Counted from the first letter of the stretch, positions 24,938-54,408 are shown. The stretch: 64,000 bases of DNA from an uncultured Actinomycetota bacterium (GCA_964578625.1 CAZODQ010000001.1:23401-87400), one strand, 5' to 3'. Made by a program: numbers and translations. The notes: generated by a model not told the origin, from the letters alone.

Positions 24938-24938
24938 C

Positions 24939-28992: not shown

Positions 28993-29012
28993 AGCTTACT
29001 CTTATTTTTAAA

Positions 29013-29395
29013 TTAATCTGTTATTTCCATTTCAATATCATCACAGTTAACATAAACCTCATTTGTAGTCAACCTAAACTTAATAGGTGACTTTCCCGGC
29101 TTGGTACCCCTAAGTTCTACAATTAAATTTATTTCATCTTCTCCCTCAATAACATATGAATCACTGACCCACATATACATACCCCGGCTCAAGCCAGGAT
29201 CCTGATCAATATATCCGGAAGGAATTGTTCCTATAAATTTAATATTATCCGGAAGCTCCAGTTCAAGCGAGCTGATTTTAATGCTTTTTTTATTCTTATT
29301 ACTGATTATATATTCAACGGTAAATTCCTCACCATATTTTCTACTGTAACTATCGCTGTAGTAATCTATTTCCACATTCACGACAGTTTCATTGA
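29013..29395. repeat. About 0.38-kb DNA-level repeat (copy 2) encoding the shared DUF11-like C-terminal domain
   Basis: See copy 1. The encoded peptides share GEEFTVEYII.N.N...KISSLELELPDNI.F....GYI.Q.PGLS.G.YMWVSDSYVI.G...INLIV.L.G..PG.S.IKFR.....Y..CDDIEM.I. Confidence 0.7.
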
Positions 29396-32858: not shown

Positions 32859-33155
32859 TTTAATAATACAACTTATACTTAAGATAATTTAAGTCAAATA
32901 AAATAAAAAATAGTATAATATTAAAAATGAAAAGAATTTTGTTTATAAAAATACTATATTACCTTTTTTATACATCTGTCTTTCTACTTGCATTAATCGT
33001 TTTCTTAGAAATTACAAAATTTAATTTCTATAATAATTACCTGAAAGATTTTTTTAATAAAATTTTTAGTATCTTAAATTTCTAATATTATTCTTATCCT
33101 GTTTTCTTAAATAAAGACATTTACAAATTTATTTTTAATGAAATAATACCAGTTT

Positions 33156-34553: not shown

Positions 34554-34602
34554 TTTCTTCCCTGATTTAAAATAACTACCTGGTGAGATTTTTTATAGAA
34601 CA

Positions 34603-35643
34603 TCAAATATTTTGATTTTTATGATCATTTGATATTTCCGGTTTTATTCTTTTAGACCTGCCTTCAAAATAGGGTCTTGCAGTATATATAATTCCCCCCA
34701 GTACTCCCATTAGAACTATCATAAACAATATCAGAAGAGAACATAAAGCAGCTTTCTCGTTAGTAACCCCCATAGCTACCAGAATAAAGACCAGAGAATT
34801 TTCCCTCAATCCGATACCGCCAATGGAAATGGGGATCATGGCTATTATTGCCACTATCGGCACAATAAAAATAAATGCGGTCAAGCTTAGGTTTATTCCT
34901 AGGGCTCTGGCTGCTAAAAACCAGTTAAGTATAACTGAAAACTGAAGAAGAAAACTGAATACCAGCACTACGACAAGAGCTTCCTTATACTTTTTAAAAC
35001 TCAACAGGGTCTTATAAACATTAGACAGCTTTTCATTTATTTTACGCATAAATTTAAACTTATTGGAAATCTTACCCAATCCGAAAAAAGAAGGATTGAT
35101 AATAAGGAAAGCTATGATCACAGTTATTACGAAAAATATGACAATTGGAATTATTACCGACCGGTGGCCGATAGCCGTAAATCCTAAAAATAAAGCTATA
35201 ACCGCATAAATAGCTGCGCTTACCACTCCGGAAAATCTTTCAACTATGATCACTGAAACAGATTTTCCCATAGGAATGTCAGCTTTTTTTGAAGCATCAT
35301 AACTCCTGAATACATCTCCTCCTATACTGGTAGGTAAAAAATTATTAAAAAAAGAGCCAATAAGAACTGTAACACTCAATGAAGCAGTACTTAATCTTAC
35401 ATCCTGCGTATTTAAAAGAACCTTCCATCTCACAGCAGTTATATAGGTCCCCAGAGCATGAGTGGAGAGCGAAAGTAAAAGTAAGACTTTATTTGATGAT
35501 TTCAAAATCTCAATTATACTGGAGAAATCTTTCATTTGTGTCTTAACCAGAAAAGCAATAAGGGAAGCACTGATTATGACTCTGGCTAAAAGAAGTATTA
35601 TCTTCTTATTTTTTATGTAAAAAGAGACGATCCTATTTTTCAT
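34603..35643 (-). CDS. Flippase-like polytopic membrane protein (LPG_synthase_TM / PF03706-like)
   Basis: 346 aa, about 8 TM. Central NFLPTSIGGDVFRSY motif characteristic of this family. Paralogs at 41009..42025 and 50496..51581. Confidence 0.55.
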   Translation of the reverse strand: MKNRIVSFYIKNKKIILLLARVIISASLIAFLVKTQMKDFSSIIEILKSSNKVLLLLSLSTHALGTYITAVRWKVLLNTQDVRLSTASLSVTVLIGSFFNNFLPTSIGGDVFRSYDASKKADIPMGKSVSVIIVERFSGVVSAAIYAVIALFLGFTAIGHRSVIIPIVIFFVITVIIAFLIINPSFFGLGKISNKFKFMRKINEKLSNVYKTLLSFKKYKEALVVVLVFSFLLQFSVILNWFLAARALGINLSLTAFIFIVPIVAIIAMIPISIGGIGLRENSLVFILVAMGVTNEKAALCSLLILFMIVLMGVLGGIIYTARPYFEGRSKRIKPEISNDHKNQNI

Positions 35644-35666: not shown

Positions 35667-36410
35667 TTATTTTCTAAATTTGGCAACTCTTGCGGGTACT
35701 CCTGCAGCTATAGAGAAAGGCGGAATATCTTTTGAAACTACAGCGCCTGCTGCAATAATGGTATCTTTTCCAATAATAATACCGTCAAAAATCAAAGCGC
35801 CTGCACCTATCCAGCAATTCTTTTTTATCTTTATGCCATAAGAAGGCTTTTCCTGCTCAGATATGGGAACATCTATTCTGGAATACTCATGTCCACCACC
35901 AATAATATAAACATATGCGGAAATTAATGTATTTTCACCAATGGTTACATTACTTGCCGAAATTATCTCACAGTTAAATCCTATAACTACATTTTTTTCC
36001 AGTACTATATCGCCATTTTTACAGCTTAATATACTGCCTCTGCCTATAAAAATATTTCTTCCTATGCTAATTCCATTGTTGTCCAGTCCTTTGGCATCGA
36101 GAACACAATAATCATCTATTACTACATTATCTTCAATGGATATTTTATGAGGATGCCTTATAGTTACAGACTTCCCAAAACTGACTCCCTTCCCTACTTT
36201 CTTAAAAAGCAAGGGAAAGAATAAATTTCTAAAAAAGATACCAATAGCTCCAGGCATGTCCTGAAACAGTGTAATTATCAATTCATATTTCAGTAAACTA
36301 AAAAAACCTTTTTTCCCTACAAATAAATCTATATATTTGGCAATTTTTGACCTATCTCTGGCAAAAAGCGTTTTCTGTATCTTGTCTTCATATTTTTCTA
36401 TTTCAATCAA
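35667..36410 (-). CDS. Hexapeptide-repeat (left-handed beta-helix) sugar O-/N-acetyltransferase
   Basis: 247 aa. Tandem hexapeptide repeats (IGRNIFIGRGSILSC, VVIGFNCEIISASNVTIGENTLISAYVYIIGG, IGAGALIFDGIIIGKDTIIAAGAVV). Confidence 0.75.
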   Translation of the reverse strand: MIEIEKYEDKIQKTLFARDRSKIAKYIDLFVGKKGFFSLLKYELIITLFQDMPGAIGIFFRNLFFPLLFKKVGKGVSFGKSVTIRHPHKISIEDNVVIDDYCVLDAKGLDNNGISIGRNIFIGRGSILSCKNGDIVLEKNVVIGFNCEIISASNVTIGENTLISAYVYIIGGGHEYSRIDVPISEQEKPSYGIKIKKNCWIGAGALIFDGIIIGKDTIIAAGAVVSKDIPPFSIAAGVPARVAKFRK

Positions 36411-37548: not shown

Positions 37549-38523
37549 TTACTTTAGAATCATTTCCTTTACCACGTATGTAGATCTATTTCGAACTTCA
37601 TGATGTACCCGCATAAGCACTTCTGCAAGAAGCCCCATAGTAATAAGCTGGATTCCTATAAAAATCATAAATATTGACAGGATAAATAACGGTCTCTCCG
37701 AAAGGGGTTGATTGAAAAATATCCTCATTATAATCAGGTAAGCAGTCATGATAAAACCAGCAGTAGCTGAAAATAATCCCAGCACTCCGAATATCTGGAT
37801 CGGACTCTGCGAATAACTTAAAAGAAATTTTACTGTGATTATATCAAGAATCACCTTTATAGTCCTGGATACTCCATATTTGGATCTTCCATACTTTCTG
37901 CTGTGATGTCTCACAGGAACCTCCGCCACCCTTACTCCCATCCAGCTTGCTATGGCAGGAATATATCGATGCATTTCACCATACAGGTCAATATTTTTTA
38001 TCACTTCTCTCTTGTATGCCTTTAGGGTGCACCCATAATCATGAAGATAAACTCCGGTAAGCTTTGATATTATTCTATTTGCAATAATTGAGGGGAACCT
38101 CCTGGTAATAGCTTTATCTTTTCTATTCACACGCCATCCGCTTACAATATCATAACCTTCATTTAACTTCTCCAGTAGAAGTGGTATATCACGTGGATCA
38201 TTTTGTAAATCTGCATCCAGAGTTATTATGACTTTGCCCTCTGCAAAATCAAAACCTGCGCTAATAGCTGATGTCTGTCCGAAATTTTTTCTAAAACTGA
38301 TGATTTTAAACAATTTATTTTCATTATTGACGTTTACAAGTTCATTAAAAGTGCCATCTGTACTTCCATCATCTATTAGCAGCACTTCATACTTCAAAGT
38401 CATCCCGGAGAGAGTTTTATAAAGTTCTTTATAAAGTTTTAAAATACTTTCTTTTTCATTATAAATAGGAATGACAATAGATAGATCAATGTCAGATTTA
38501 AGTTTTTTTGAAACTTTATTCAT
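37549..38523 (-). CDS. GT2 polyprenyl-phosphate sugar synthase (ArnC/DPM1-like) with C-terminal TM helices
   Basis: 324 aa. LSIVIPIYNEKESI...LLIDDGSTDGT...DADLQNDP, then two C-terminal TM segments. Overlaps the downstream SDR gene by 8 nt. Confidence 0.8.
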   Translation of the reverse strand: MNKVSKKLKSDIDLSIVIPIYNEKESILKLYKELYKTLSGMTLKYEVLLIDDGSTDGTFNELVNVNNENKLFKIISFRKNFGQTSAISAGFDFAEGKVIITLDADLQNDPRDIPLLLEKLNEGYDIVSGWRVNRKDKAITRRFPSIIANRIISKLTGVYLHDYGCTLKAYKREVIKNIDLYGEMHRYIPAIASWMGVRVAEVPVRHHSRKYGRSKYGVSRTIKVILDIITVKFLLSYSQSPIQIFGVLGLFSATAGFIMTAYLIIMRIFFNQPLSERPLFILSIFMIFIGIQLITMGLLAEVLMRVHHEVRNRSTYVVKEMILK

Positions 38524-39493
38524 TTAAAAAGCCTTTTTCTTTTTTTTCTTTATACCATCTTATGAATTTGGTCAAACCCTCATTAATATTAGTCTCAGGA
38601 AAATATTTTAACATTTTTCTTGCTTTTCTAATATCTGCATAAGTCATAAAGACATCACCCGGCTGTCTGTTTATAAACTTTAAGTTTGCTTTTTCTCCTG
38701 TGACAGTTTCGATTAATCTCACCAGATCTATTAATTTAATGGTGTTTGAATTTCCCAAATTGATAATTTCAAAACCTTTTATTCTGTCCAGACTGTTAAC
38801 CACACCGGAAATTACATCATCAATATAAGTATAATCCCGTGAAGAAGAACCGTTGCCATATATTTCTATCTGCTCTCCGTTCAGTATCTGCCGGGTAAAT
38901 TTATGTATAGCCATCTCCGGCCTCTGCCGCGGGCCGTAGACCGTAAAAAATCTAAAACAGAAAATTGATATCTTATACAGACTGTGATAGGTGTAACAGA
39001 TCAGCTCTCCTGCTTTTTTAGTGGCAGCATATGGAGATACGGGATGGTCAACATTATCATCTTCTGAAAAAGGGATTTTCTTGCTCTCGCCATAGACAGA
39101 AGACGACGAAGCAAAGATAAATTTTGGAATATTATATTTTTTACAGCATTCCAGTAAATTCATAGTCCCAAGAACATTTACCTTCTGGTATAAAAGAGGA
39201 CTTTTTATCGATGGCCTCACACCGGCCTTTGCTGCCAGATGAATCACCATTCCTATATCATTTTTTAAAAATATTTTTTCCAGTTGGTCCAGATTACAGA
39301 TATCCAAGCGATAAAGCTTGAAATTATTGTTATTAATAACTCCCCGGATGTTGTCTTCTTTTATTTCAGGGCTGTAAAAGTCATCAAAGTTGTCAATACA
39401 GATTATTTTAAATCCCAGATTTATTAATTTTTCACAGAGATAAGATCCAATAAATCCTGCTCCGCCGGTTACTATAATATTCATTATTTTCAA
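38516..39493 (-). CDS. NAD-dependent nucleotide-sugar epimerase/dehydratase (SDR extended family)
   Basis: 325 aa. TGGAGFIGS Rossmann motif, YAATK YxxxK catalytic motif. Confidence 0.8.
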   Translation of the reverse strand: MKIMNIIVTGGAGFIGSYLCEKLINLGFKIICIDNFDDFYSPEIKEDNIRGVINNNNFKLYRLDICNLDQLEKIFLKNDIGMVIHLAAKAGVRPSIKSPLLYQKVNVLGTMNLLECCKKYNIPKFIFASSSSVYGESKKIPFSEDDNVDHPVSPYAATKKAGELICYTYHSLYKISIFCFRFFTVYGPRQRPEMAIHKFTRQILNGEQIEIYGNGSSSRDYTYIDDVISGVVNSLDRIKGFEIINLGNSNTIKLIDLVRLIETVTGEKANLKFINRQPGDVFMTYADIRKARKMLKYFPETNINEGLTKFIRWYKEKKEKGFLNE

Positions 39494-39888: not shown

Positions 39889-41004
39889 ATGAAGATAGGA
39901 ATTATGTTAAGGCATATAAACGAATTAGGAGGAATAGCAGTCTACACTAAAAATCTTATTGGAAAACTGCTGGAGATCGATAAAAGGAATGAATATGTTT
40001 TTTTATATAATACTTATTCTCTGGTAGGCACTTATTCTAAATATAAAAATGTTAAAGAAGTAGTCATAGATACACCGAATAAACTGCTCTGGGATCAAAT
40101 CGGAGTGCCCAAGGTGGTCAAATCAGAGAATATTGATATAATATTTAATCCAAAATTATCCATTCCGGTGTTTACTCCTTCTAAAAAGGTATTCACTCTT
40201 CCCGGATTAGAACAGTTTGCCTTACCCAATGTGTTCAAATGGTACGATCATATATATTTTCGCATAATGATACCTCTCTATTGCCATCGTTCAAATGCAA
40301 TTATTGTTATGACAAACACAGGCAAGAACGATTTAATGAAATATATCAATGTAAATAGGAATAAAATAGAGGTTATATACGGGTCTTGTCATAAGAGATT
40401 CAGATTCACAAAACAAATAAAAAATATCCTTAGGATAAAGAAAAAATATAATCTCCCTGATAAATATATACTTTTTGTAGGTGGAATAACCCCGCTGAAA
40501 AATTTTTCAAATATTATTAGAGCATTTAACATAATAAAGAACAAAATTTCCATCAAATTAATTGTAGTCGGATTCAAAAGATGGAAATATGCTAAAGACA
40601 TATGCTTAATAAATAAACTCGATTTACAAAACGATATAATAACTCTTGGATTTATTTCGGATGATGATCTTCCTTATCTTTACAATTCAGCTCAGTGTCT
40701 TGCATTGCCCTCTCTATATGAAGGTTTTGGCATACCTATACTGGAAGCTCAGGCCTGCGGATGTCCGGTTATTTGTTCAAAAACAGGATGTGCCCCGGAA
40801 GTTTCCGGCGGAGCAGCATTATTGGTAGATCCATATAACTATAAAGAAATAGCACAGGTAATGTATGATGTTTTAAGTGATATAGATCTAAGAAAGAAGC
40901 TTATAGCAGCCGGATTGGAAAATGTAAAAAATTTCAGCTGGTTGAAAGCTGCTGAGCAAACTTTACAATTATTTAAAAAAATTTCTCAATCTAAATCTGT
41001 TTAA
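39889..41004 (+). CDS. GT4 (Glycos_transf_1) glycosyltransferase
   Basis: 371 aa. LPSLYEGFGIPILEAQACGCPVICS E-x7-E-type motif. Confidence 0.8.
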   Translation: MKIGIMLRHINELGGIAVYTKNLIGKLLEIDKRNEYVFLYNTYSLVGTYSKYKNVKEVVIDTPNKLLWDQIGVPKVVKSENIDIIFNPKLSIPVFTPSKKVFTLPGLEQFALPNVFKWYDHIYFRIMIPLYCHRSNAIIVMTNTGKNDLMKYINVNRNKIEVIYGSCHKRFRFTKQIKNILRIKKKYNLPDKYILFVGGITPLKNFSNIIRAFNIIKNKISIKLIVVGFKRWKYAKDICLINKLDLQNDIITLGFISDDDLPYLYNSAQCLALPSLYEGFGIPILEAQACGCPVICSKTGCAPEVSGGAALLVDPYNYKEIAQVMYDVLSDIDLRKKLIAAGLENVKNFSWLKAAEQTLQLFKKISQSKSV

Positions 41005-41008
41005 CTTT

Positions 41009-42025
41009 ATGAAACGTAGATTTAATTTTATTTTCAAAAGACCCCTTGAATTTTTAAAACGCAGGAAACGCATATTTAATTTCATTATCCAATTAGTAGT
41101 CAGCATTATACTGATAACTCTATTATTGCGCTGGGTAAATATTGGTGATATGATCTCCCTTTTTAAAAATATAAATATTTACTATTTCATTCTTCTTTTA
41201 GCCCTTGTTACCCTTGATAGAATCTTCATGGCATATAAATGGCACCTGTTGCTTAAGATAAAAGATACAAGTATTTCTTTAGTAAGTGCTATAAGGACCT
41301 ACTACATAGGAACATTCATAGGTTCTTTTCTACCCACTACAGTCGGCGGAGATATAGTTCGGGTCTTAAAATTGCATAGTGAAAAACGAAAAGGGACTGA
41401 CGTATTATCTTCTGTAATACTGGAAAGGATGTTAGGTTTTATAGCCTCCGCCGTTTTAGCTCCAATTGCAGCTTTGTTTTTAATATCTTTTTTTAAACTG
41501 AATATAGGGCGTTTTCTGGGAATAGCAGGAGTATTATTATTTCTCTTTATCATATTAATGTTAATTCCATTTAGCGAAGCTATATTCCGGAAAATAGATA
41601 AAAACGAGAAGTTATCCAGAAATTTTTTATTTAATAAATTTAGAAATCTTTATCTATCCTATGCGAAATATAAAAATAATAAAAATATACTCATCCTGTT
41701 TTTAGCTCTATCTATTTTGGAACAGTTGGTACCGGTAATCGGTAACTACCTGGCTAGCCGAGCATTAAACCTATCCATACCATTTGTATACTTTCTACTT
41801 ATAGTCCCCCTGGTGCAGCTTATCTCAAGAATTCCTATTTCCTTCGAGGGATTTGGAGTCAATGAAGGACTTCTGGTATACTTTTTCTCTTTGCTGGGCC
41901 TTTCCAAAACAGGTGCTTTTACTATAGGGCTGCTTGGCCATATTGCAATTATTATTGCTACCCTACCAGCTTTGTTCTTCTATTTTAAAGATATTAAAAC
42001 TTCTTTCGATCAGGTCAAGCATTAA
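41009..42025 (+). CDS. Flippase-like polytopic membrane protein (PF03706-like)
   Basis: 338 aa. GSFLPTTVGGDIVRVLK motif. Paralog of 34603..35643 and 50496..51581. Confidence 0.55.
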   Translation: MKRRFNFIFKRPLEFLKRRKRIFNFIIQLVVSIILITLLLRWVNIGDMISLFKNINIYYFILLLALVTLDRIFMAYKWHLLLKIKDTSISLVSAIRTYYIGTFIGSFLPTTVGGDIVRVLKLHSEKRKGTDVLSSVILERMLGFIASAVLAPIAALFLISFFKLNIGRFLGIAGVLLFLFIILMLIPFSEAIFRKIDKNEKLSRNFLFNKFRNLYLSYAKYKNNKNILILFLALSILEQLVPVIGNYLASRALNLSIPFVYFLLIVPLVQLISRIPISFEGFGVNEGLLVYFFSLLGLSKTGAFTIGLLGHIAIIIATLPALFFYFKDIKTSFDQVKH

Positions 42026-42156
42026 TATTAAGCAGACATAGAATATAAATTGAAAACAATAGAATTTAAGTTAAATTTAATGTATATTTACATAAATAAT
42101 TACTAGTAAACTGGAATATTTTCTAACAATAATTACATCATTATAATTTAAAAGAG

Positions 42157-43476
42157 ATGGAAATTAAAAATCTGTTTGAATATCTAAAAAGCAAGGAAAA
42201 AAAAATCGCCGTAGTTGGCCTTGGTTATGTGGGTTTACCTCTTCTCGTAGCATTCAGTAAATATTTTAAGGTTATTGGTTTTGACATAAACAGCGAAAAA
42301 ATAACTAATTTAAAAAACGGAATAGATGAAAATAATGAAGTTAAAACCAGTAAACTATCCTCAATAGATTGCATTCTAACCAGTAATGCTAATGATTTAA
42401 AAAACATAAATTTTTTTATAATAACAGTTCCTACACCTATTGATATTTATAAAAACCCTGATTTAAGCCATGTTGAAAAAGCAACAAGGCTGGTAGGACA
42501 AAATATGCCAAAAGGTTCAATAATAGTTTATGAATCTACAGTTTATCCTGGAGTAACTGAAGAATTCTGCATTCCACTACTTGAAAAAGAATCAAAACTT
42601 ATAAACAAAAAAGATTTTTATGCAGGCTACTCCCCTGAAAGAATAAACCCAGGAGATAAAGAACATTCAATAGAAAATATAATAAAGGTCGTCTCAGCGC
42701 AGGATGAAGATTCCCTGGAAATAATAAGTAAAGTTTATAGTAAAGTAGTTAAAGCCGGAATATTTAAAGCAAAAAGTATAAAAATAGCTGAAGCAGCAAA
42801 GGTAATTGAAAATATACAAAGGGATATAAACGTGGCTCTTATTAATGAAATAGCCATTTTATTTTCTAAGTTAGGAATTGATACAAAAGAAGTTATTGAA
42901 GCTGCTAGAACCAAATGGAATTTTTTAGATTTTAGACCAGGCTTGGTAGGAGGCCACTGTATTGGAGTTGACCCTTATTATTTATCTTTTAAAGCTAAAG
43001 AGGTTAATTACTATCCCGAAATAATTAACACTGGCCGAAAACTAAATGATAATATGGGTTTTTTTATTGGAGAACAGATAATTAAAACACTACTTAGCAA
43101 TCACAATAAAAAAACAAACTTTAAGGTTGTCCTGTTTGGAATATCTTTTAAAGAAAATGTAGCAGATCCTAGAAACTCAAGAGTAATTGATATATACAAT
43201 TATCTAATCCAGCACAATATTGACGTTCAGATATTTGATCCTATTGTAAACACTATAGAAGTTAAGGAAACTTACGGAATTGACCTTATAAAATTTGGAG
43301 AAATAAATAACATTGACGCTGCTGTCTTCTGTGTGGCACATAACTATTTTAAAAAAACGAACCTTATAGAATTAAAATCAAAAATGACTAGAGACAATCC
43401 ATTTGTATTTGATATAAAATGGATCTTCGATAAAGAAAATATTGAAAAACTGGGCTTCAGATACTGGAGAATTTAG
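42157..43476 (+). CDS. Nucleotide-sugar dehydrogenase (UDP-GlcNAc 6-dehydrogenase TviB/WbpO/WecC-like)
   Basis: 439 aa. N-terminal VVGLGYVGLP NAD motif and catalytic-Cys motif GGHCIGVDPYY. The size and the immediately following 4-epimerase-like gene resemble TviB-TviC / WbpO-WbpP pairs. Confidence 0.8.
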   Translation: MEIKNLFEYLKSKEKKIAVVGLGYVGLPLLVAFSKYFKVIGFDINSEKITNLKNGIDENNEVKTSKLSSIDCILTSNANDLKNINFFIITVPTPIDIYKNPDLSHVEKATRLVGQNMPKGSIIVYESTVYPGVTEEFCIPLLEKESKLINKKDFYAGYSPERINPGDKEHSIENIIKVVSAQDEDSLEIISKVYSKVVKAGIFKAKSIKIAEAAKVIENIQRDINVALINEIAILFSKLGIDTKEVIEAARTKWNFLDFRPGLVGGHCIGVDPYYLSFKAKEVNYYPEIINTGRKLNDNMGFFIGEQIIKTLLSNHNKKTNFKVVLFGISFKENVADPRNSRVIDIYNYLIQHNIDVQIFDPIVNTIEVKETYGIDLIKFGEINNIDAAVFCVAHNYFKKTNLIELKSKMTRDNPFVFDIKWIFDKENIEKLGFRYWRI

Positions 43477-43478
43477 CA

Positions 43479-44468
43479 TTGGATTTAGAGAAATTAACTA
43501 TAGATAAAGATAAAAAAATTCTAATTACAGGCTGTGCAGGATTTATTGGCTCTCATCTTACCGAATTCTTTCTTAAAAAAGGAGCACTGGTAAAAGGGCT
43601 TGATAATCTGTCTACAGGCTTTAAGAAAAACATTAACGATGCATTATCCAATGCTTCAAGAGAAAATGAAAACATTTATTTTGAATTTATAAATGGTGAT
43701 ATAACAGATTATAATGAATGTCTTACAAATACAAAAAGTATTGATATTGTCCTGCACCAGGCAGCTTTAGGTTCCGTACAGAGGTCTATAGAAAAACCAC
43801 TTGATTCTAACGCTGCCAATATAGAAGGGACCTTAAATTTACTGAAAGCTTCTGTAGAGAATAAAGTAAAAAGATTTATATACGCATCATCCTCATCCAT
43901 TTACGGGGATTCGGAAAAACTTCCTAAAGATGAATCTATGCCGCCCAATCCAAAATCAATTTATGCGGTGACCAAATTAACCGCAGAATATTACTGCAGA
44001 TTATTTTATAAATTATATGGTCTTAAGACCATTTCCCTGCGTTATTTTAATGTTTTTGGCGGAAGGCAAAATCCTGATTCAATTTATTCTGCAGTCATTC
44101 CCATTTTTTTAAAAAAAATAACAGCCAACAAATCTCCAGTTATATACGGTGATGGAAACCAGACCAGGGATTTCACTTATATAGATAATGTAATTTACGC
44201 AAATTACCTGGCCGCTTTTATTGAAAATGAAAATATATATGGAAATTACTATAATGTCGCATGCGGACAGAATATCAGCTTAAATAAAATTATTACCCTA
44301 TTAGCAAAATACTTTAAAAAGGAAATAAAACCGATATATACAAAAGAAAGAATCGGGGATATAAAACACAGCTTAGCATCAATAGAAAAAATAAAAAAGG
44401 ACATTAACTACACCCCCATAATTAAATTCAATGAAGGCCTGGAAAAGCTGGTTTTTCAACAGCAATAA
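43479..44468 (+). CDS. NAD-dependent UDP-sugar 4-epimerase (WbpP/TviC-like SDR)
   Basis: 329 aa. ITGCAGFIGSH, YAVTK YxxxK. Start is 3 nt after the dehydrogenase stop. Confidence 0.7.
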   Translation: MDLEKLTIDKDKKILITGCAGFIGSHLTEFFLKKGALVKGLDNLSTGFKKNINDALSNASRENENIYFEFINGDITDYNECLTNTKSIDIVLHQAALGSVQRSIEKPLDSNAANIEGTLNLLKASVENKVKRFIYASSSSIYGDSEKLPKDESMPPNPKSIYAVTKLTAEYYCRLFYKLYGLKTISLRYFNVFGGRQNPDSIYSAVIPIFLKKITANKSPVIYGDGNQTRDFTYIDNVIYANYLAAFIENENIYGNYYNVACGQNISLNKIITLLAKYFKKEIKPIYTKERIGDIKHSLASIEKIKKDINYTPIIKFNEGLEKLVFQQQ

Positions 44469-44630
44469 AAAATAATTTTACATGTTTTTCCGGCAGAAAT
44501 CTTTCCTATTAATACTAAATGTTATAAAATATCGGAAACGATTTCGTGAGAATTTTTAATAGTTTGAAAAATTACTTTATCATTTAAACTGGTTAACTGC
44601 TATTAAATTCTTTAAGGAAAGGAAGAAAAA

Positions 44631-45614
44631 TTGAAATTATTAGTAACAGGTGGGACCGGTTTCACAGGAAGCAGGCTGGTAGAATATTTAATAAACAAAG
44701 GACACAACGTTTCGGCATTGGATAATCAAAAAGGCATTCTATATGACCATCTTATAAAAAAAGGAGCAAACATTACTCTGGGATCGGTTACTGATAGAGA
44801 AACAGTAAAAAAATCTTTAGATGGCATACAAGGTGTTTTTCACCTTGCCGCAGCCTTCAGGCAGATTAATGCTACGAAAAAAACTTACTTGAACGTCAAT
44901 GTGGAAGGAACCCGTATTCTTTGTGAAGAAGCGCTTAAAAAGCCCCTAAAGAAATTTGTTTATTGTTCAACCCAGGGTGTGCATGGAGATATTAAAAATC
45001 CACCTGGCGACGAAGATTCTCCAATAGTACCGGTTGATTATTATCAATATACTAAATACGAAGGTGAAAAAGTGGTAAAGGAGTTTACCGCAAAGGGACT
45101 TAAGAGTGTCATTATAAGACCAACCGCTATATACGGTCCCGGTGATCCTGAAAGATTTTTTTATCTATTTCGATTTGCTAAAAAAGGTAAATTTTATATG
45201 TTCGGAAACGGAAAAGCTTTATACCATCCCGTATATATAGATAATCTTAATGATGGGTTCTATGCAGCCTGGGAAAGTAACAAAATCAACGCCGAAACTT
45301 ACATTATTGCTGACCAGCAGTATTTTACAATTAAAAAACTGGTTAAAAAAATCGGCCAGTCGATGGGCATAAAAGTAAAATTTATTCAACTGCCCTTTTT
45401 CCCTTTATACATAGCAGCCTGTTTATGCGAATTCATCTGTATGCCCTTTAAAATATCCCCTCCTCTATTCAGGCGGCGGGTTGATTGGTACAGACAGAAC
45501 CGGGCTTTTAAAATTGACAAAGCCAGAAGAGAAATAAACTATAATCCACGAGTAGGGATCGAAGAAGGCTTAAAAAGAACAGCAAAGTGGTATAAAGATA
45601 ACAATTATCTCTAA
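44631..45614 (+). CDS. NAD-dependent epimerase/dehydratase family protein
   Basis: 327 aa. VTGGTGFTGS Rossmann motif, YQYTK catalytic motif. Confidence 0.7.
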   Translation: MKLLVTGGTGFTGSRLVEYLINKGHNVSALDNQKGILYDHLIKKGANITLGSVTDRETVKKSLDGIQGVFHLAAAFRQINATKKTYLNVNVEGTRILCEEALKKPLKKFVYCSTQGVHGDIKNPPGDEDSPIVPVDYYQYTKYEGEKVVKEFTAKGLKSVIIRPTAIYGPGDPERFFYLFRFAKKGKFYMFGNGKALYHPVYIDNLNDGFYAAWESNKINAETYIIADQQYFTIKKLVKKIGQSMGIKVKFIQLPFFPLYIAACLCEFICMPFKISPPLFRRRVDWYRQNRAFKIDKARREINYNPRVGIEEGLKRTAKWYKDNNYL

Positions 45615-45687
45615 AAATAGATAACCAATATTCAAATTTTTATATCAGTAAGTAAAATTTATAAAATAATATTCAGGAATTAATATT

Positions 45688-47553
45688 ATGTGTGGAATCT
45701 GCGGTTTTAACTGGGATGACGAAAAACTCATTCAAAAAATGGTCCAAAAAATTCACCACAGAGGACCGGATGCCAGCGGCACAAAGACTTTTCCTTCATT
45801 ATCCATGGGAAATGCTCGTTTGAGTATCATTGACCTTTCCGTTAAGGGAAACCAACCGATGTCCGATAGAAATGGAAAGCTATGGATTGTTTACAACGGT
45901 GAAGTATATAACTTCCCTGATATAAAAAAAGAACTAATTGCAAGAGGTTATAAGTTTAACAGCCATACCGATACTGAAGTAGTTTTAAAAAGCTATGAAG
46001 AATTTGGCCCTAAGTGCCTTGAAAAATTTAACGGTATGTTTGCCTTCGCCATATGGGACGAAGAAAAAAAGGAACTTTTTTTGGCCAGGGATAGAATTGG
46101 GATCAAACCTTTATATTATTACTTAAAAGATGGGAAATTAATCTTCGGCTCAGAAATAAAAAGCATACTTGAAGCAGATTGTGTAAAAAGGGAGGTGAAC
46201 CTCCAATCCATGTATTATTACCTGGGATATGAATTCGTTCCTGCTCCGGATACCATGTTCAAGAACATCTACAAACTCCGGCAGGGACATTACGCCATTT
46301 TTAAAAACGGTGACCTGCAAATCACAAAATACTGGGAATTAAAATTCAAACCAGAAATATCTAATGAAGAAGAAGCAGCGGACAGGATATTTGCTGCTCT
46401 GGAAAAATCCGTAAAAAGACGTTTGATCAGTGATGTTCCTTTGGGTGTTTTTTTATCCGGAGGGCTCGATTCCAGCACTGTTGTAGGTTTTGTTTCCAGA
46501 CTATATCCAAATAAGGTCCGGACCTTTTCCATAGGATATAAAGATAAAACTTTTTCAGAGCTTCCTTATGCTAAAATAGTCTCCGATTTTTTTCATACCG
46601 AACATAATGTATTGATGATCGATCCGGTCTCACCGGAAGATATCGAAAGAAGCCTTTATCATTTAGACGAACCTATGACCGACCTTTCCACTATTCCTTT
46701 TTACCTTATTAGCTGTAAAGCAAGAGAAAAAGTAAAAGTGTGTCTTAGCGGAGAAGGAGGAGACGAAATATTCCTGGGATATGACAGGTTTAAAGCAGCA
46801 AAAATAAACCGCTACTATAATATTTTTCCGTCTTTTATTAGAAAAAAGATCTTATCACCACTCGTCCTTAAGCTGCCTGACCAGCCCCAAAAAAAAGGTG
46901 CTATTAACATGCTTAAGCGCTATATGGAAGGAACACTTTATCCTGAAGAAGCAGGAGCTATGCGCTGGCAGTACTTCCTGAATCCAAAAATAGAACAAAA
47001 TATCCTTAATAAACATTCTCAAGGTAACATATCTTTTACCCCTTTTATTCCTATATATTATTTTTCGAAGATCTGCAATTCTGTAAATCAAATAGACAGG
47101 GATATTTTTGTGGATATAAAACTCACTATGGCCGATAGTGTCCTTATGAAAATTGACAAAATGAGTATGGCTACTTCTTTAGAGGTAAGAGTTCCCTTCC
47201 TGGATCATGAAGTCGTGGAACTCTGCGCTTCTATTCCGGCCGGCTTGAAACTTAATAAACTGACTACCAAATATATTTTCAGAAAAACTCTAAAAAAATA
47301 CAACTTCCTGCCGGAAAGCATCATCTACAGGGGTAAACAGGGTTACAGCCTGCCTGTTAAAAATTGGCTAAGAGAAGAATTAAAAGATTATATGACAGAC
47401 CTCTTTAGAAAATCGCCTATTATCAGAGAGAATTTCAATAGTCCATATTTATCACTTCTTATAAAGGAACATTCGGAATTAAAGCACAACTATAATCATA
47501 TTCTATGGGCCCTGGTAAATTTAAGTTTGTGGTATAAAAAATTTTTTCTTTAG
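45688..47553 (+). CDS. Asparagine synthase-like glutamine amidotransferase (AsnB/WbpS-like)
   Basis: 621 aa. N-terminal MCGICGF class-II GATase nucleophile and SGGLDSS PP-loop motif. Confidence 0.85.
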   Translation: MCGICGFNWDDEKLIQKMVQKIHHRGPDASGTKTFPSLSMGNARLSIIDLSVKGNQPMSDRNGKLWIVYNGEVYNFPDIKKELIARGYKFNSHTDTEVVLKSYEEFGPKCLEKFNGMFAFAIWDEEKKELFLARDRIGIKPLYYYLKDGKLIFGSEIKSILEADCVKREVNLQSMYYYLGYEFVPAPDTMFKNIYKLRQGHYAIFKNGDLQITKYWELKFKPEISNEEEAADRIFAALEKSVKRRLISDVPLGVFLSGGLDSSTVVGFVSRLYPNKVRTFSIGYKDKTFSELPYAKIVSDFFHTEHNVLMIDPVSPEDIERSLYHLDEPMTDLSTIPFYLISCKAREKVKVCLSGEGGDEIFLGYDRFKAAKINRYYNIFPSFIRKKILSPLVLKLPDQPQKKGAINMLKRYMEGTLYPEEAGAMRWQYFLNPKIEQNILNKHSQGNISFTPFIPIYYFSKICNSVNQIDRDIFVDIKLTMADSVLMKIDKMSMATSLEVRVPFLDHEVVELCASIPAGLKLNKLTTKYIFRKTLKKYNFLPESIIYRGKQGYSLPVKNWLREELKDYMTDLFRKSPIIRENFNSPYLSLLIKEHSELKHNYNHILWALVNLSLWYKKFFL

Positions 47554-47555
47554 AC

Positions 47556-48425
47556 TTATCTGTTTCTGCTCTTAATATAATCTTTCAGTGCTTCCTTCCA
47601 GTTTTTTAAATCAGACAGTCCGATTTTCCTCAAATTAAAGTTATCCAGAACAGAATAATACGGCCTTCTTGCTTTTGCTCCAAACTGTTCAGTAGTGATG
47701 GGTATCACCTTTGTATTTAATTTCATAAGCCTGGATATTTCACAGGCAAACTCATACCATGAACAGATCCCGGTATTTGTCATATGGTAAATACCATATT
47801 TTCCGGTTTGTATCAACTCAAAAAGCTTTTCTGAAACATCCAGAGTGCTGGTCGGGGTAAGTATTTGATCATTTACTATTCTTATTTCCCCTTTCTCTTC
47901 AGCTAATTTTATTACCGACTCTACAAAATTAGTGCTCCCTTTGCCGACACATCCTGCATGGCCGTAAAGCCCGCTTAACCTTACTATATAATACTTATCA
48001 AGGATATACCGTATTACCTGCTCTCCCGCCAGTTTGGATATTCCATACAGGCTGAGCGGTCTGGCGCAATCATCCTCTACATAAGGTACATTTTTTTTAC
48101 CATCAAATATGTAATCAGTACTGAAATGTACAAGCGGGATATCAATCTCCCTGCATATCAATGCCAGATTTTTAACTCCTATTACATTTACTTTAAAAGC
48201 AGAAAGGGCCTCTTCTTCACAAAGGTCTACATCATGAAAGGCAGCCGTATTTATAACTATATCAGGCCTGACCTTTTTTAAAACACTTTCACTTACCTTA
48301 TAATCACAAACATCAATATCCTTTAAACCCACCAGTCCCGTAATTTCAATACCTTTCTTTTTAAAATGACTATTGATATCAGTTCCAAGCTGGCCGTCGA
48401 CTCCTATTAATACAATTTTTCCCAT
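47556..48425 (-). CDS. RmlD-like NAD(P)H-dependent sugar 4-ketoreductase (dTDP-4-dehydrorhamnose reductase family)
   Basis: 289 aa. IVINTAAFHDVDLCEE and FSTDYIFDG...YGISKLAGE match the RmlD family pattern. No rmlABC in the window, so the substrate is uncertain. Confidence 0.6.
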   Translation of the reverse strand: MGKIVLIGVDGQLGTDINSHFKKKGIEITGLVGLKDIDVCDYKVSESVLKKVRPDIVINTAAFHDVDLCEEEALSAFKVNVIGVKNLALICREIDIPLVHFSTDYIFDGKKNVPYVEDDCARPLSLYGISKLAGEQVIRYILDKYYIVRLSGLYGHAGCVGKGSTNFVESVIKLAEEKGEIRIVNDQILTPTSTLDVSEKLFELIQTGKYGIYHMTNTGICSWYEFACEISRLMKLNTKVIPITTEQFGAKARRPYYSVLDNFNLRKIGLSDLKNWKEALKDYIKSRNR

Positions 48426-48434: not shown

Positions 48435-49148
48435 TTAAGCTCCAGACAGGACTAAAAATCTTAAAATAAAGTAAATGCAAATCTCGATTACAGCCAGTGC
48501 CGTATAGGAAACTGCGATCCATATGATTTTTCTTTTTCTTCCGGCAATAACTGTTACTCTTAAAATCTCTATGATTATTATGCCCAGTATAAACAGATAT
48601 AAAAATGTGAAGTATTTATTTGAATACAACTTATAAAAGAATTCGGAAAATGGATGCTTACTATACCAGGGTTTCATTTCAAGCTGGCTGAAATAATCTT
48701 TTTCTATCCTGAATACATTATCCCCAGGATTCTCTAAAAAGCCACCTATATTTATTCTGGAAAGATCATATCCATCGTTGATTTTTAAATCAAATTCCAG
48801 GTAAGTGTAATCACTAGGAGTAAAACTAAAACCGTCCGAGTAGTCATTCTCGTTTAAAGTGGCAGAAAATTCTATTTTATCCCTCCCGACATAGATTACA
48901 TCATTTTCTTCCTCCAGTCCTCTTAAGCTGTATTTGGTTATCTTGCCATCGGTAGAAATTACACCATCAAACTTCGTTTCTTTAAGGTCTACACTCCACT
49001 CTACGAATATGCTGCCGTCCTCTTCCCATATAAAATAACCATAGCTGGCACCTGGAATATAAAAAATTCCTGTACATCCAGTAAGAAGCATTAAAATCAA
49101 TACCGCTACAAGAAAGAGTATAATAATTTTATTAGTTACTTTTATCAT
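48435..49148 (-). CDS. Hypothetical lipoprotein-like membrane protein (N-terminal signal/lipobox LLTGC, C-terminal TM helices)
   Basis: 237 aa. The order is hydrophobic N-terminus, soluble middle and two C-terminal hydrophobic segments. No recognisable family. Confidence 0.3.
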   Translation of the reverse strand: MIKVTNKIIILFLVAVLILMLLTGCTGIFYIPGASYGYFIWEEDGSIFVEWSVDLKETKFDGVISTDGKITKYSLRGLEEENDVIYVGRDKIEFSATLNENDYSDGFSFTPSDYTYLEFDLKINDGYDLSRINIGGFLENPGDNVFRIEKDYFSQLEMKPWYSKHPFSEFFYKLYSNKYFTFLYLFILGIIIIEILRVTVIAGRKRKIIWIAVSYTALAVIEICIYFILRFLVLSGA

Positions 49149-49155
49149 TTTTTCC

Positions 49156-54145: not shown

Positions 54146-54408
54146 AAAAATTAATCTCCTAAAATTTATATCTTAAAACATTAGACAGATTAGAGTAAAT
54201 TATAACAGACAATTTATTTTTTTACATAAAATCTATCCATAAGTAAACCAGGATGTAATCCATATCATAATAAAAACAATAAAATGGTTTTTACAATTTG
54301 CCTCGTTTATAAATATTTTCCTTTATAATTGATATAATGATAAAATTTAATTTATAATTTTAAGCTTTAGAATCGTATTTATCATAAAATATAAAAAAGT
54401 TTTAAAAC

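What the first reader, a model, noticed from the sequence alone, without database searches (positions are those of the whole stretch)
42157..48425. UDP-N-acetyl-hexosaminuronic acid pathway with an AsnB-like amidotransferase: predicted amidated uronic acid sugar
A TviB/WbpO-like UDP-sugar 6-dehydrogenase (GGHCIGVD catalytic Cys motif) is immediately followed by a WbpP/TviC-like 4-epimerase and a further SDR. Next is an AsnB-type amidotransferase (MCGICGF, SGGLDSS), and an RmlD-like 4-ketoreductase lies convergently beside it. In Pseudomonas aeruginosa O6 the analogous WbpO/WbpP/WbpS trio produces GalNAcA and its amide GalNAcAN. This locus therefore likely incorporates an amidated 2-acetamido uronic acid, plus a 6-deoxyhexose.
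Basis: partly seen in the sequence, partly recalled or inferred. Interest (0 to 1): 0.5.

Follow-up and report, generated by a model that had tools for sequence, protein, structure and literature searches.

The report
Uronic-acid sugar genes beside conserved amidotransferase
The five genes are real, but the sugar-acid genes are an optional two-gene insert, while the amidotransferase belongs to a separate gene pair of unknown substrate that is kept across many phyla without them, so the predicted amidated N-acetyl sugar acid is possible but not the best-supported reading.

Summary
All five ORFs exist at the stated coordinates with the quoted motifs. The dehydrogenase and epimerase (42157-44468) form a GnaA/GnaB (WbpO/WbpP, TviB/TviC) pair. 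They are 49% and 42% identical to the E. coli O121 pair and are best read as making UDP-GalNAcA.

The interval is not one pathway. The AsnB-type gene and the "further SDR" upstream of it (SDR3) are a conserved pair with their own conserved upstream region. They stay adjacent in 8 of 8 close-relative loci (Humimicrobiia-like Actinomycetota). They also occur in Auribacterota, Desulfobacterota, Proteobacteria, Acidobacteriota, Rokubacteria and Methanoperedens, usually with a hexapeptide acyltransferase and an LPG_synthase_TM membrane protein.

The dehydrogenase/epimerase cassette is missing in 6 of those 8 close loci and in every distant one. The AsnB clade has 97/100 NJ bootstrap support. It excludes E. 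coli O121 WbqG (33% identity), Listeria AsnB (35%) and E. coli AsnB (32%).

Uronamide formation remains the most likely chemistry. The substrate is probably not specifically GalNAcA; a conserved UDP-GlcA 4-epimerase homologue at 38516-39493 points to GalA as an alternative.

RmlD stands alone, with no rmlA, rmlB or rmlC in the window. Overall this is an ordinary pathway next to an uncharacterised conserved module.

The parts
42157..43476 (+). GnaA/WbpO/TviB-type UDP-GlcNAc 6-dehydrogenase; first gene of an accessory two-gene cassette.
   Evidence: NCBIfam TviB scores 452 bits (cut-off 592), against WecC 191-210 and Ugd 123 or less. It is 49% identical over 411 aa to E. coli O121 tviB/gnaA. blastn finds only tviB genes in E. 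coli. It has the lowest GC3 of the locus, 0.218. It is absent from L008, L009, L091, L092, L093 and L094.
43479..44468 (+). GnaB/WbpP/WbgU/TviC-type 4-epimerase for UDP-GlcNAcA to UDP-GalNAcA; second gene of the cassette, starting 2 bp after the dehydrogenase stop.
   Evidence: Best PDB matches are WbpP 1sb8 at 251 bits and WbgU at 251 bits. The best NCBIfam model is TviC at 275 bits. It is 42% identical to O121 GnaB. The Ser equivalent to WbpP S306 is kept (..DIKHSLAS). Clade B epimerases are always adjacent to a WbpO homologue (PMC3682973).
44495..44630 (+). Conserved upstream region (promoter/5'UTR and RBS) of the SDR3-AsnB operon; it marks the right-hand edge of the cassette insertion.
   Evidence: The region aligns at high identity with the sequence upstream of SDR3 in L001, L008 and L091, whether the preceding gene is gnaB or the LPG_synthase_TM gene. 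There is no Rfam match and no unusual fold.
44631..45614 (+). SDR3: a 327-aa NAD-dependent extended SDR of unknown substrate and the obligate partner of the AsnB-type gene.
   Evidence: Best HMMs are HpnA at 149 bits and OleD at 146 bits, both far below cut-off. Best PDB match is 3wj7 at 115 bits. The AF2 model has pLDDT 89 and Foldseek returns generic NDP-sugar extended SDRs. Orthologues lie next to AsnB orthologues with parallel identity, 87% down to 46%, in most of the 17 loci whose AsnB is at least 46% identical.
45688..47553 (+). Glutamine-dependent AsnB-family amidotransferase belonging to a distinct, SDR3-linked clade.
   Evidence: HMM scores are TIGR03108 522, TIGR01536 499 and E. coli AsnB model 329 bits (cut-off 499). 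WbqG gives the same profile: 528, 460 and 268. Cys1, R49, N74, E76, D98, the PP-loop, E348, D351, K429 and K449 are kept in 15 of 15 clade members. The clade has 97/100 NJ bootstrap support and excludes WbqG, Listeria AsnB and K-12 AsnB.
47556..48425 (-). RmlD-family 4-ketoreductase; first gene of a convergent, lineage-conserved block with two unknown membrane proteins and an LPG_synthase_TM protein (to 51581).
   Evidence: TIGR01214 scores 295 bits, above the cut-off of 224. Best PDB match is 1vl0 at 226 bits. It is 29% identical to E. coli RfbD, and no RfbA or RfbC homologue occurs in the window. The block is conserved in L001, L008, L009, L091, L092 and L093.
38516..39493 (-). UDP-glucuronate 4-epimerase homologue, outside the finding. 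It is conserved in the locus and diverges directly from SDR3-AsnB where the insert is absent.
   Evidence: PDB matches are 5u4q at 274 bits, BcUGAepi 6zl6 at 241 bits and MoeE5 at 182 bits. It carries the motifs ASSSSVYG, YAATK and FTVYGPRQRPEM. The same motif protein occurs in L001, L009, L091, L092 and L093, and beside the sister AsnB branches L015, L017, L020 and L021.
37549..38523 (-). ArnC-like polyprenyl-phosphate sugar transferase (GT2), outside the finding.
   Evidence: The ArnC model NF007986 scores 250 bits and PgfS 184 bits. Orthologues of 51-56% identity lie near AsnB-SDR3-HexAT in L011, L012 and L013.
35667..36410 (-). Hexapeptide-repeat acyltransferase (HexAT), a recurrent partner of the SDR3-AsnB pair, outside the finding.
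   Evidence: It matches Hexapep and the WcaF/WbbJ-like models. Orthologues of 36-84% identity occur in 11 of the SDR3-linked loci.
34603..35643 (-). LPG_synthase_TM (flippase-like) membrane protein next to HexAT, one of three paralogues; this family is a recurrent partner of the pair.
   Evidence: PF03706 matches at E 2.9e-43. LPG_synthase_TM genes lie adjacent to AsnB or HexAT in L003, L005, L006, L014, L016 and L050.
39889..42025 (+). GT4 glycosyltransferase plus a second LPG_synthase_TM protein: a variable block that precedes the cassette.
   Evidence: Searches give the family matches. The block is present in L001, L008 and L091 and absent in L009, L092, L093 and L094.

Best explanation
The interval holds three independent units, not one pathway.

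**Unit 1: accessory gnaA-gnaB cassette (about 42026-44495).** It oxidises UDP-GlcNAc to UDP-GlcNAcA and epimerises that to UDP-GalNAcA. This gives one of the locus's many glycosyltransferases an acidic N-acetyl sugar. The function is inferred from orthology; the modular status is shown directly.

**Unit 2: conserved two-gene operon, SDR3 plus a glutamine-dependent AsnB-family amidotransferase (44631-47553).** It has its own conserved upstream region. It is part of a module that has spread across phyla together with a hexapeptide acyltransferase, an LPG_synthase_TM membrane protein and often an ArnC-like GT2 or a GT4.
- By analogy with the experimentally supported family members WbpS, WbqG and PGN_1234, the amidotransferase most likely adenylates a sugar carboxylate. 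It then converts it to a carboxamide using ammonia released from glutamine.
- Its usual substrate cannot depend on the cassette. A uronic acid made from housekeeping UDP-GlcA is the better candidate, for example GalA made by the conserved UDP-GlcA 4-epimerase homologue at 38516-39493, or a product of SDR3 itself.
- GalNAcA may be an additional substrate in genomes that carry the cassette.
- The chemistry and the substrate are inferred; the linkage pattern is shown.

**Unit 3: RmlD-like reductase.** It heads a separate convergent block together with unknown membrane proteins.
For: **Cassette identity.** HMM ranking, 49% and 42% identity to the E. coli O121 gnaA and gnaB genes, WbpP/WbgU as best structures, and the adjacency rule of PMC3682973.

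**Cassette is accessory.**
- It is present in the window and in L001/L002.
- It is absent from otherwise collinear loci: L091 (AsnB 93% identical), L008 (87%), L092, L009, L093 and L094.
- The 140 bp upstream of SDR3 is conserved regardless of which gene lies upstream.
- The cassette genes have the lowest GC3 of the locus.

**SDR3-AsnB is a conserved pair.**
- The two genes are adjacent and co-oriented in 8 of 8 close loci.
- They co-occur with parallel identity in loci from at least 7 phyla, whereas the 65 loci carrying AsnB paralogues of 34-43% identity lack an SDR3 orthologue (best SDR3-like hits 25-39%).
- The AsnB clade has 97/100 bootstrap support.
- L014 is a compact SDR3-AsnB-LPGTM-HexAT-LPGTM island beside a transposase.

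**Amidotransferase is catalytically competent.** All glutaminase and adenylation residues are kept.

**Family precedent for uronamide formation.** The wbpS knock-out in H. pullorum and the PGN_1234 knock-out, with WbqG cited as required. WbqG has the same HMM score profile as the window protein.

**Alternative uronic-acid source.** A UDP-GlcA 4-epimerase homologue is conserved in the locus, and the same motif protein lies beside the sister AsnB branches.
Against: - No biochemical or compositional data exist for this lineage.
- Outside the close relatives, none of the SDR3-linked loci has any uronic-acid-forming or uronic-acid-epimerising gene within 8-10 kb. A sugar carboxylate substrate is therefore an analogy, not an observation.
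- gnaA homologues of at least 73% identity are fairly common: about 37 clusters, against about 84 for AsnB at 74% or more. Several appear to share contigs with AsnB, judged only from equal contig lengths. The cassette therefore sits beside SDR3-AsnB repeatedly, which could reflect a functional link.
- Genomes that lack the cassette at this locus could carry gnaA/gnaB elsewhere. This could not be checked.
- The role of SDR3 is unknown; HMM, sequence and fold comparisons were all indecisive.
Confidence: 0.5

Rival explanations
1. The dehydrogenase, epimerase and AsnB homologue act in series as in P. aeruginosa O6 (WbpO, WbpP, WbpS) to give UDP-GalNAcA and then its amide GalNAcAN.
For: The gnaA-gnaB pair lies immediately upstream on the same strand. 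The AsnB homologue's best NCBIfam model is TIGR03108, at the same score as WbqG, which is needed for GalNAcAN in E. coli O121. The cassette is found beside SDR3-AsnB in at least two independent assemblies, and probably in several more contigs.
Against: The protein is only 33% identical to WbqG, whereas true WbpS orthologues are 63% identical between Helicobacter and Pseudomonas. It sits in a separate clade with 97/100 support. The pair persists at 77-93% identity in 6 of 8 close loci that lack the cassette, and in all distant loci. SDR3-AsnB has its own conserved upstream region. The model also gives no role to SDR3, which is the invariant partner.
Confidence: 0.22
2. The SDR3-AsnB-HexAT-LPG_synthase_TM module does not act on a nucleotide sugar. 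It modifies a membrane-bound molecule, such as a polyprenyl-phosphate-linked sugar, a glycolipid or a lipid head group, on the cytoplasmic face before the molecule is flipped, in the manner of the Arn pathway.
For: LPG_synthase_TM genes recur next to AsnB and HexAT. The L014 and L007 islands contain no glycosyltransferase. An ArnC-like GT2 travels with the module at 51-56% identity in L011-L013. SDR3's best HMMs are lipid-related SDRs (HpnA, OleD, NSDHL, SdmB). GT-C-like enzymes lie in the locus. From my own knowledge, AsnB-type enzymes that act on lipid-linked substrates are known: MoeF5 in moenomycin synthesis and LtsA on lipid II.
Against: The predicted SDR3 fold is closest to ordinary NDP-sugar epimerases, dehydratases and decarboxylases. 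L011 and L012 place the module inside a normal Wzx-type polysaccharide cluster. There is no direct evidence for any lipid substrate.
Confidence: 0.18
3. The AsnB homologue is a housekeeping enzyme that merely happens to lie in the glycan locus. It would be either a real asparagine synthetase or a peptidoglycan meso-diaminopimelate amidotransferase of the Gram-positive AsnB/LtsA type.
For: It passes the broad TIGR01536 asparagine synthase model (499 bits against a cut-off of 267). It is highly conserved in the lineage, 75-93% identity across dozens of clusters. It is as similar to Listeria AsnB (35%) as to WbqG (33%). The host is probably an actinobacterium, and by my own knowledge LtsA-type enzymes exist in that group.
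Against: It is always paired with SDR3 and usually with HexAT and LPG_synthase_TM, and the pair moves between phyla, including the archaeon Methanoperedens. It falls below the E. coli AsnB equivalog cut-off (329 against 499). Its clade excludes Listeria and E. coli AsnB with 97/100 support. Its acceptor-site motif (EPMTDLST) is invariant within the clade and unlike any of the landmark proteins.
Confidence: 0.08

Closest known systems
GnaA/GnaB pair (P. aeruginosa O6 WbpO/WbpP; Salmonella Typhi TviB/TviC; E. coli O121 gnaA/gnaB) for UDP-GalNAcA
   Same: The two genes are adjacent and co-oriented. The proteins are 49% and 42% identical to the E. coli O121 pair. TviB and TviC are the best NCBIfam models. 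WbpP and WbgU are the best solved structures, and the Ser that corresponds to WbpP S306 is present.
   Different: Both proteins score below the curated equivalog cut-offs (452 against 592; 275 against 760). The host is a low-GC, uncultured Humimicrobiia-like actinobacterium. Here the pair is a variable cassette inside a very large ABC-transporter-type glycan locus.
WbpS / WbqG / PGN_1234 uronamide-forming amidotransferases (AsnB family, TIGR03108-like)
   Same: Length is similar (621 against 630 aa). The Ntn-glutaminase plus PP-loop architecture is the same and every catalytic residue is kept. The NCBIfam score profile matches that of WbqG, and the gene lies in a glycan locus that can make uronic acids.
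   Different: Identity to WbqG is only 33%. The protein belongs to a separate, well-supported clade with a different acceptor-site motif (EPMTDLST against EPFADSSQ). Its conserved neighbours are SDR3, HexAT and LPG_synthase_TM rather than a uronic-acid pathway.
MoeE5/MoeF5 of moenomycin biosynthesis (UDP-GlcA 4-epimerase plus an AsnB-type amidotransferase that amidates a lipid-linked GalA). The functions are from my own knowledge, not verified here.
   Same: The locus conserves a UDP-GlcA 4-epimerase homologue that matches MoeE5 at 182 bits, together with an AsnB-type enzyme and membrane-associated partners.
   Different: MoeF5 itself was not compared because no sequence was available. There is no phosphoglycerate-lipid machinery here, and the context is cell-surface glycan synthesis rather than antibiotic synthesis.
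Arn (L-Ara4N) pathway logic: UDP-GlcA-derived sugar, SDR step, acyl transfer, ArnC, flippase, GT-C
   Same: The locus has an ArnC-like GT2 (250 bits), extended SDRs, an acyltransferase, flippase-like membrane proteins and GT-C-like enzymes.
   Different: There is no ArnA, ArnB, ArnD or ArnT orthologue. An amidotransferase is present where Arn has an aminotransferase. The resemblance is in architecture only.

Membership tests
GnaA / WbpO / TviB UDP-GlcNAc 6-dehydrogenase | Three-domain UDPG_MGDP_dh architecture with the catalytic Cys in GGHCIGVD | tested here: met
   PF03721, PF00984 and PF03720 are all present. The motif is read directly in the translation.
GnaA / WbpO / TviB UDP-GlcNAc 6-dehydrogenase | Closer to UDP-GlcNAc 6-dehydrogenases than to UDP-ManNAc or UDP-Glc dehydrogenases | tested here: met
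   TviB scores 452 bits, WecC-type models 191-210 and Ugd-type models 22-123. The protein is 49% identical to E. coli O121 GnaA. The score is below the equivalog cut-off of 592, so this is clade-level placement, not equivalog-level.
GnaA / WbpO / TviB UDP-GlcNAc 6-dehydrogenase | Oxidises UDP-GlcNAc to UDP-GlcNAcA | not testable with these tools
   Requires an enzyme assay.
GnaB (clade B epimerase: WbpP, TviC, WbgU) | Adjacent to a WbpO/GnaA homologue | tested here: met
   There is a 2-bp gap after the dehydrogenase gene. The adjacency rule is stated in PMC3682973.
GnaB (clade B epimerase: WbpP, TviC, WbgU) | Closest to WbpP/WbgU/TviC rather than to GalE/Gne | tested here: met
   1sb8 and 3ru7 score 251 bits against 98 bits for E. 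coli GalE. TviC scores 275 against GalE 169. The protein is 42% identical to O121 GnaB. It is below the TviC cut-off of 760, as is O121 GnaB itself at 509.
WbpS / WbqG uronamide amidotransferase | Glutamine-hydrolysing N-terminal Cys domain plus a PP-loop adenylating domain | tested here: met
   C1, R49, N74, E76, D98, SGGLDS, E348, D351, K429 and K449 are all conserved.
WbpS / WbqG uronamide amidotransferase | Orthology with WbpS/WbqG (true orthologues are about 63% identical across Proteobacteria) | tested here: not met
   Identity to WbqG is 33%. The NJ clade with 97/100 support excludes WbqG. The 63% figure comes from PMC6025236. P. aeruginosa WbpS itself was not available for comparison.
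WbpS / WbqG uronamide amidotransferase | Conserved linkage to a uronic-acid-forming pathway | tested here: not met
   gnaA/gnaB are present in 2 of 8 close loci and in none of the distant SDR3-linked loci.
WbpS / WbqG uronamide amidotransferase | Product is a uronamide in the glycan | not testable with these tools
   Needs glycan composition analysis or an enzyme assay.
Asparagine synthetase B (E. coli/human type) | Reaches the AsnB equivalog score and clusters with AsnB | tested here: not met
   NF006949 scores 329 bits against a cut-off of 499, in three separate stretches. Identity to K-12 AsnB is 32%, and K-12 AsnB is a distant outgroup. The Arg of the TTIRAS motif is replaced by Leu, but that Arg is also missing in Listeria AsnB, so it is not diagnostic. 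Only the broad TIGR01536 model is passed.
RmlD dTDP-4-dehydrorhamnose reductase | Reaches the TIGR01214 cut-off | tested here: met
   295 bits against a cut-off of 224. Best PDB match is 1vl0 at 226 bits.
RmlD dTDP-4-dehydrorhamnose reductase | Accompanied by RmlA, RmlB and RmlC | tested here: not met
   tblastn with E. coli RfbA and RfbC finds nothing in the 64 kb, and RfbB finds only 27-28% matches to other SDRs. The rest of the genome was not available.
HpnA (hopanoid-associated SDR), considered for SDR3 | Reaches the TIGR03466 cut-off | tested here: not met
   149 bits against a cut-off of 368. Identity to annotated hpnA genes is 29%.
UDP-glucuronate 4-epimerase (BcUGAepi/Gla/MoeE5), considered for 38516-39493 | Family signature motifs and closest solved structures | tested here: met
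   5u4q scores 274 bits, 6zl6 241 bits and 6kv9 182 bits. The motifs ASSSSVYG, YAATK and FTVYGPRQRPEM are present.

The most novel reading that the evidence does not exclude
SDR3-AsnB, together with the hexapeptide acyltransferase, the LPG_synthase_TM protein and often an ArnC-like GT2, is an undescribed, horizontally mobile module. It builds an amidated (and acetylated) acidic sugar on a polyprenyl-phosphate carrier and delivers it outside the membrane through flippase-like and GT-C-type proteins. This would be an Arn-like surface-modification route used by bacteria of many phyla and by Methanoperedens. SDR3 would be the enzyme that makes the amidotransferase's substrate.
Probability: 0.2. 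Interest if true: 0.6.

Novelty: new variant of a known kind. Interest (0 to 1): 0.35.

Why it matters
The practical lesson concerns annotation. An AsnB-type gene next to gnaA/gnaB cannot be read automatically as WbpS. Here the amidotransferase belongs to a separate, widely distributed clade whose constant partner is an uncharacterised SDR.

If that pair is worked out, it would assign a function to a gene module found in uncultured Actinomycetota, Auribacterota, Desulfobacterota, Acidobacteriota, Proteobacteria and an archaeon. It would also help predict the surface chemistry (charge-neutralising amidation of acidic sugars) of subsurface lineages that cannot yet be grown.

The gnaA/gnaB part is routine.

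Tried and rejected
- **Exact look-up of the window's AsnB product.** It found nothing. The identical protein P0001 carries no name or accession, so the host was inferred from named relatives.
- **Atribacterota assumption.** I first assumed the relatives were Atribacterota. The taxonomy look-up showed that Humimicrobiaceae and Hydromicrobium belong to Actinomycetota, and I corrected this.
- **Loss of the E. coli AsnB Arg (TTIRAS) as evidence against asparagine synthesis.** Rejected as diagnostic, because Listeria AsnB lacks it too.
- **PDB comparison of the dehydrogenase.** It cannot separate the clades, because no TviB or WbpO structure exists.
- **SDR3 function.** HMMs, PDB sequence search, an AF2 model with Foldseek, and plasmid tblastn gave only generic extended-SDR or weak HpnA/OleD-like matches. 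An Indioceanicola homologue (41% identical) sits near a UDP-GlcA decarboxylase and GalE but has no AsnB nearby.
- **Promoter and terminator scan.** Uninformative in this AT-rich DNA, with counts equal to the shuffled controls.
- **Riboswitch upstream of SDR3.** No Rfam hit and a fold z-score of -0.18.
- **Literature search for the module** (asparagine synthase + LPG synthase + epimerase + acetyltransferase). Nothing relevant was found, and MoeF5 is not in the searchable library.
- **Hopanoid-like reading of the HpnA/HpnJ/HpnL-type hits.** All scores are far below cut-off, so this is kept only as a passing note.

Full report
**1. Observation**

- 42157-43476 (+), 439 aa: nucleotide-sugar dehydrogenase with GGHCIGVD.
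- 43479-44468 (+), 329 aa: SDR, starting 2 bp after the dehydrogenase stop.
- 44631-45614 (+), 327 aa: a second SDR, called SDR3 here.
- 45688-47553 (+), 621 aa: AsnB-type protein starting MCGICGF and carrying SGGLDSS.
- 47556-48425 (-), 289 aa: convergent RmlD-like gene.

Pfam and NCBIfam matches have E-values from 1e-80 to 1e-156.

**2. Host and setting**

- The window has 34% G+C and holds a trp operon followed by about 55 kb of glycan genes. These include many GT2 and GT4 enzymes, two GT2/GT4 fusion proteins, Wzm/Wzt, three LPG_synthase_TM proteins, radical SAM enzymes and GT-C-like proteins.
- Named relatives of the AsnB, dehydrogenase and SDR3 proteins are mostly 'Actinobacteria/Actinomycetota' MAGs, Candidatus Humimicrobiaceae and Candidatus Hydromicrobium.
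- NCBI taxonomy places these in Actinomycetota, class Humimicrobiia.

**3. The dehydrogenase and epimerase are a GnaA/GnaB pair**

Dehydrogenase:
- It scores 452 bits on the TviB model, 191-210 on UDP-ManNAc dehydrogenase models and at most 123 on UDP-Glc dehydrogenase models.
- A distant blastn search of 5,426 E. coli genomes hit only genes annotated tviB, including the gene in the O121 O-antigen cluster.
- The protein is 49% identical to that O121 enzyme over 411 residues.

Epimerase:
- Its best solved relatives are WbpP and WbgU, each at 251 bits, against about 98 bits for E. coli GalE.
- It keeps the Ser that corresponds to WbpP S306.
- It is 42% identical to O121 GnaB.

Cunneen et al. (PMC3682973) define this clade as UDP-GlcNAcA 4-epimerases that are always adjacent to a WbpO homologue. 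Production of UDP-GalNAcA is well supported by orthology, although both proteins score below the strict equivalog cut-offs.

**4. The AsnB homologue is catalytically complete but is not a WbpS orthologue**

- Catalytic residues: all glutaminase residues, the PP-loop and the adenylation-site residues are conserved.
- HMM profile: its scores (TIGR03108 522, TIGR01536 499, E. coli AsnB model 329) are almost the same as those of E. coli O121 WbqG (528, 460, 268). The literature reports WbqG to be required for GalNAcAN (PMC7468200).
- Identity to landmarks: only 33% to WbqG, 35% to Listeria AsnB and 32% to E. coli AsnB. By contrast, Helicobacter pullorum and Pseudomonas WbpS are 63% identical to each other (PMC6025236).
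- Tree: in a neighbour-joining tree of 88 long AsnB proteins, the window protein falls in a clade of 15 sequences with 97/100 bootstrap support. That clade excludes all three landmarks.

So the second refutation test (clustering with genuine asparagine synthetases) is not triggered. The positive claim of being WbpS-like is met only at the level of the broad family.

**5. Gene neighbourhoods decide the matter**

I scanned one genome per GTDB species with an alignment of the AsnB clade and kept 80 loci. I also fetched ten further metagenomic or genomic loci, L001-L007 and L091-L094. The loci then in hand (L001-L087) were compared with all window proteins.

Among loci whose AsnB is at least 46% identical:
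- Almost every one has an SDR3 orthologue next to it, and the SDR3 identity tracks the AsnB identity (87% down to 46%).
- Most also have an orthologue of the hexapeptide acyltransferase at 35667-36410 and an LPG_synthase_TM gene.
- Several have a GT4, or an ArnC-like GT2 orthologous to 37549-38523 (51-56% identical in L011-L013; ArnC model 250 bits).
- These loci come from Humimicrobiia-like MAGs, Auribacterota, Desulfobacterota, Proteobacteria, Vicinamibacterales, Rokubacteria and Methanoperedens.
- Outside the close relatives, none has a TviB-like or TviC-like gene within 8-10 kb.

The 65 loci with AsnB paralogues of 34-43% identity lack an SDR3 orthologue; their best SDR3-like hits reach only 25-39% identity.

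**6. Among close relatives the dehydrogenase/epimerase pair is optional**

| Locus | AsnB identity | Arrangement |
|---|---|---|
| Window, L001/L002 | 100%, 88% | GT4-LPGTM-gnaA-gnaB-SDR3-AsnB |
| L091 | 93% | GT4-LPGTM-SDR3-AsnB |
| L008 | 87% | GT4-LPGTM-SDR3-AsnB |
| L009, L092, L093 | 83%, 85%, 81% | SDR3-AsnB diverges directly from the gene at 38516-39493 |
| L094 | 77% | SDR3-AsnB present; another arrangement again |

- The 140 bp upstream of SDR3 is conserved whether gnaB or the LPG_synthase_TM gene precedes it. SDR3-AsnB therefore carries its own control region, and the cassette is an insertion of about 2.5 kb (roughly 42026-44495).
- The two cassette genes have the lowest GC3 of the locus.
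- The cassette is not rare, however. About 37 protein clusters are at least 73% identical to the dehydrogenase, and equal contig lengths suggest that several of them share contigs with AsnB. A functional link in cassette-bearing genomes cannot be excluded.

**7. An alternative source of uronic acid**

- The gene at 38516-39493 is a UDP-glucuronate 4-epimerase homologue. It scores 274 bits to 5u4q, 241 to the characterised Bacillus cereus enzyme and 182 to MoeE5, and it carries the FTVYGPRQRPEM signature.
- It is conserved in the close relatives.
- Proteins with the same signature lie beside the AsnB branches nearest to the SDR3-linked clade: L015, L017, L020 and L021.
- This makes GalA, or another derivative of housekeeping UDP-GlcA, a plausible usual substrate.
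- The distant SDR3-linked loci lack this gene. One possibility, untested, is that SDR3 itself makes the substrate.

**8. SDR3 remains unassigned**

- It has a GxxGxxG motif, an acidic residue at the end of strand 2 and a Ser/Thr...YxxxK catalytic set.
- Its best HMMs (HpnA 149 bits, OleD 146 bits) are far below cut-off.
- Its best solved relative by sequence is Gox2253.
- A confident AF2 model (pLDDT 89) matches NDP-sugar epimerases, dehydratases and decarboxylases about equally well.

**9. RmlD**

- The gene passes the RmlD model.
- E. coli RfbA and RfbC find nothing in the 64 kb, and RfbB finds only weak matches to other SDRs. Small ORFs show no cupin domain.
- In close relatives RmlD is the first gene of a conserved block with two membrane proteins that match no family and a further LPG_synthase_TM protein.
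- A 6-deoxyhexose is therefore possible but not supported by this window.

**10. Verdict**

- The amidated-GalNAcA half is one possibility among several, at about 0.2.
- The best-supported picture is an accessory gnaA/gnaB cassette lying next to a conserved SDR3-AsnB pair. That pair is part of a cross-phylum module of unknown product. Its most likely chemistry is amidation of a sugar carboxylate, but this is inferred by analogy only.
- The module is an uncharacterised variant of a known kind of system and is of moderate interest.

Noticed in passing
window 31902-35643: A GT2 (AglJ/dolichyl-phosphate-hexose-transferase-like) lies beside a B12-binding radical SAM protein and an LPG_synthase_TM/HpnL-like protein. 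The radical SAM protein's best NCBIfam hit is HpnJ (155 bits, far below cut-off). The set resembles HpnI/HpnJ/HpnL of hopanoid side-chain loci.
   Followed up: no
window 34603-35643, 41009-42025, 50496-51581: Three paralogous LPG_synthase_TM (flippase-like) membrane proteins lie within 17 kb of one glycan locus.
   Followed up: partly
window 48435-50472 (-): Two membrane proteins of 237 and 438 aa have no Pfam or NCBIfam match even at E <= 1. They are conserved together with RmlD and an LPG_synthase_TM gene in close relatives.
   Followed up: partly
window 51638-56775: Two divergently transcribed giant fusion glycosyltransferases are present: GT2+GT4 of 835 aa and GT4+GT2 of 788 aa. A Wzt (with the Wzt_C carbohydrate-binding domain) and Wzm exporter follow at 57947-60149.
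   Followed up: no
window 20499-30902: This region holds a cluster of probable surface proteins and enzymes: two PD40 beta-propeller proteins, a DUF11/CARDB protein fused to a GDSL esterase, a CARDB protein fused to a polysaccharide deacetylase, and a TMEM260/PMT_2-type GT-C enzyme.
   Followed up: no
window 44495-44630: About 140 bp upstream of SDR3 are conserved in L001, L008 and L091 regardless of the upstream gene. There is no Rfam family match and no unusual RNA fold (z = -0.18).
   Followed up: yes
L014 8934-14756 and 16280-17545: In a Vicinamibacterales MAG the module is a compact SDR3-AsnB-LPGTM-HexAT-LPGTM island with no glycosyltransferase. It lies next to an IS3-type transposase, which is consistent with horizontal mobility.
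   Followed up: partly
L005, L006, L010-L013, L016: Outside the close relatives, the module is often extended by a GlpD-like FAD oxidoreductase (about 550 aa), one or two methyltransferases and a GT4. L012 also has a Wzx-type flippase.
   Followed up: partly
L092 11900-12667: A truncated 255-aa UDPG_MGDP_dh fragment (N-terminal and central domains only) lies 3 kb downstream of AsnB in a relative that lacks the intact cassette.
   Followed up: no
window 2668-8852 (-): A complete trpE-D-C-F-B-A operon borders the glycan locus. The 383-aa ORF on the opposite strand at 6044-7195 overlaps trpD and is probably spurious.
   Followed up: no
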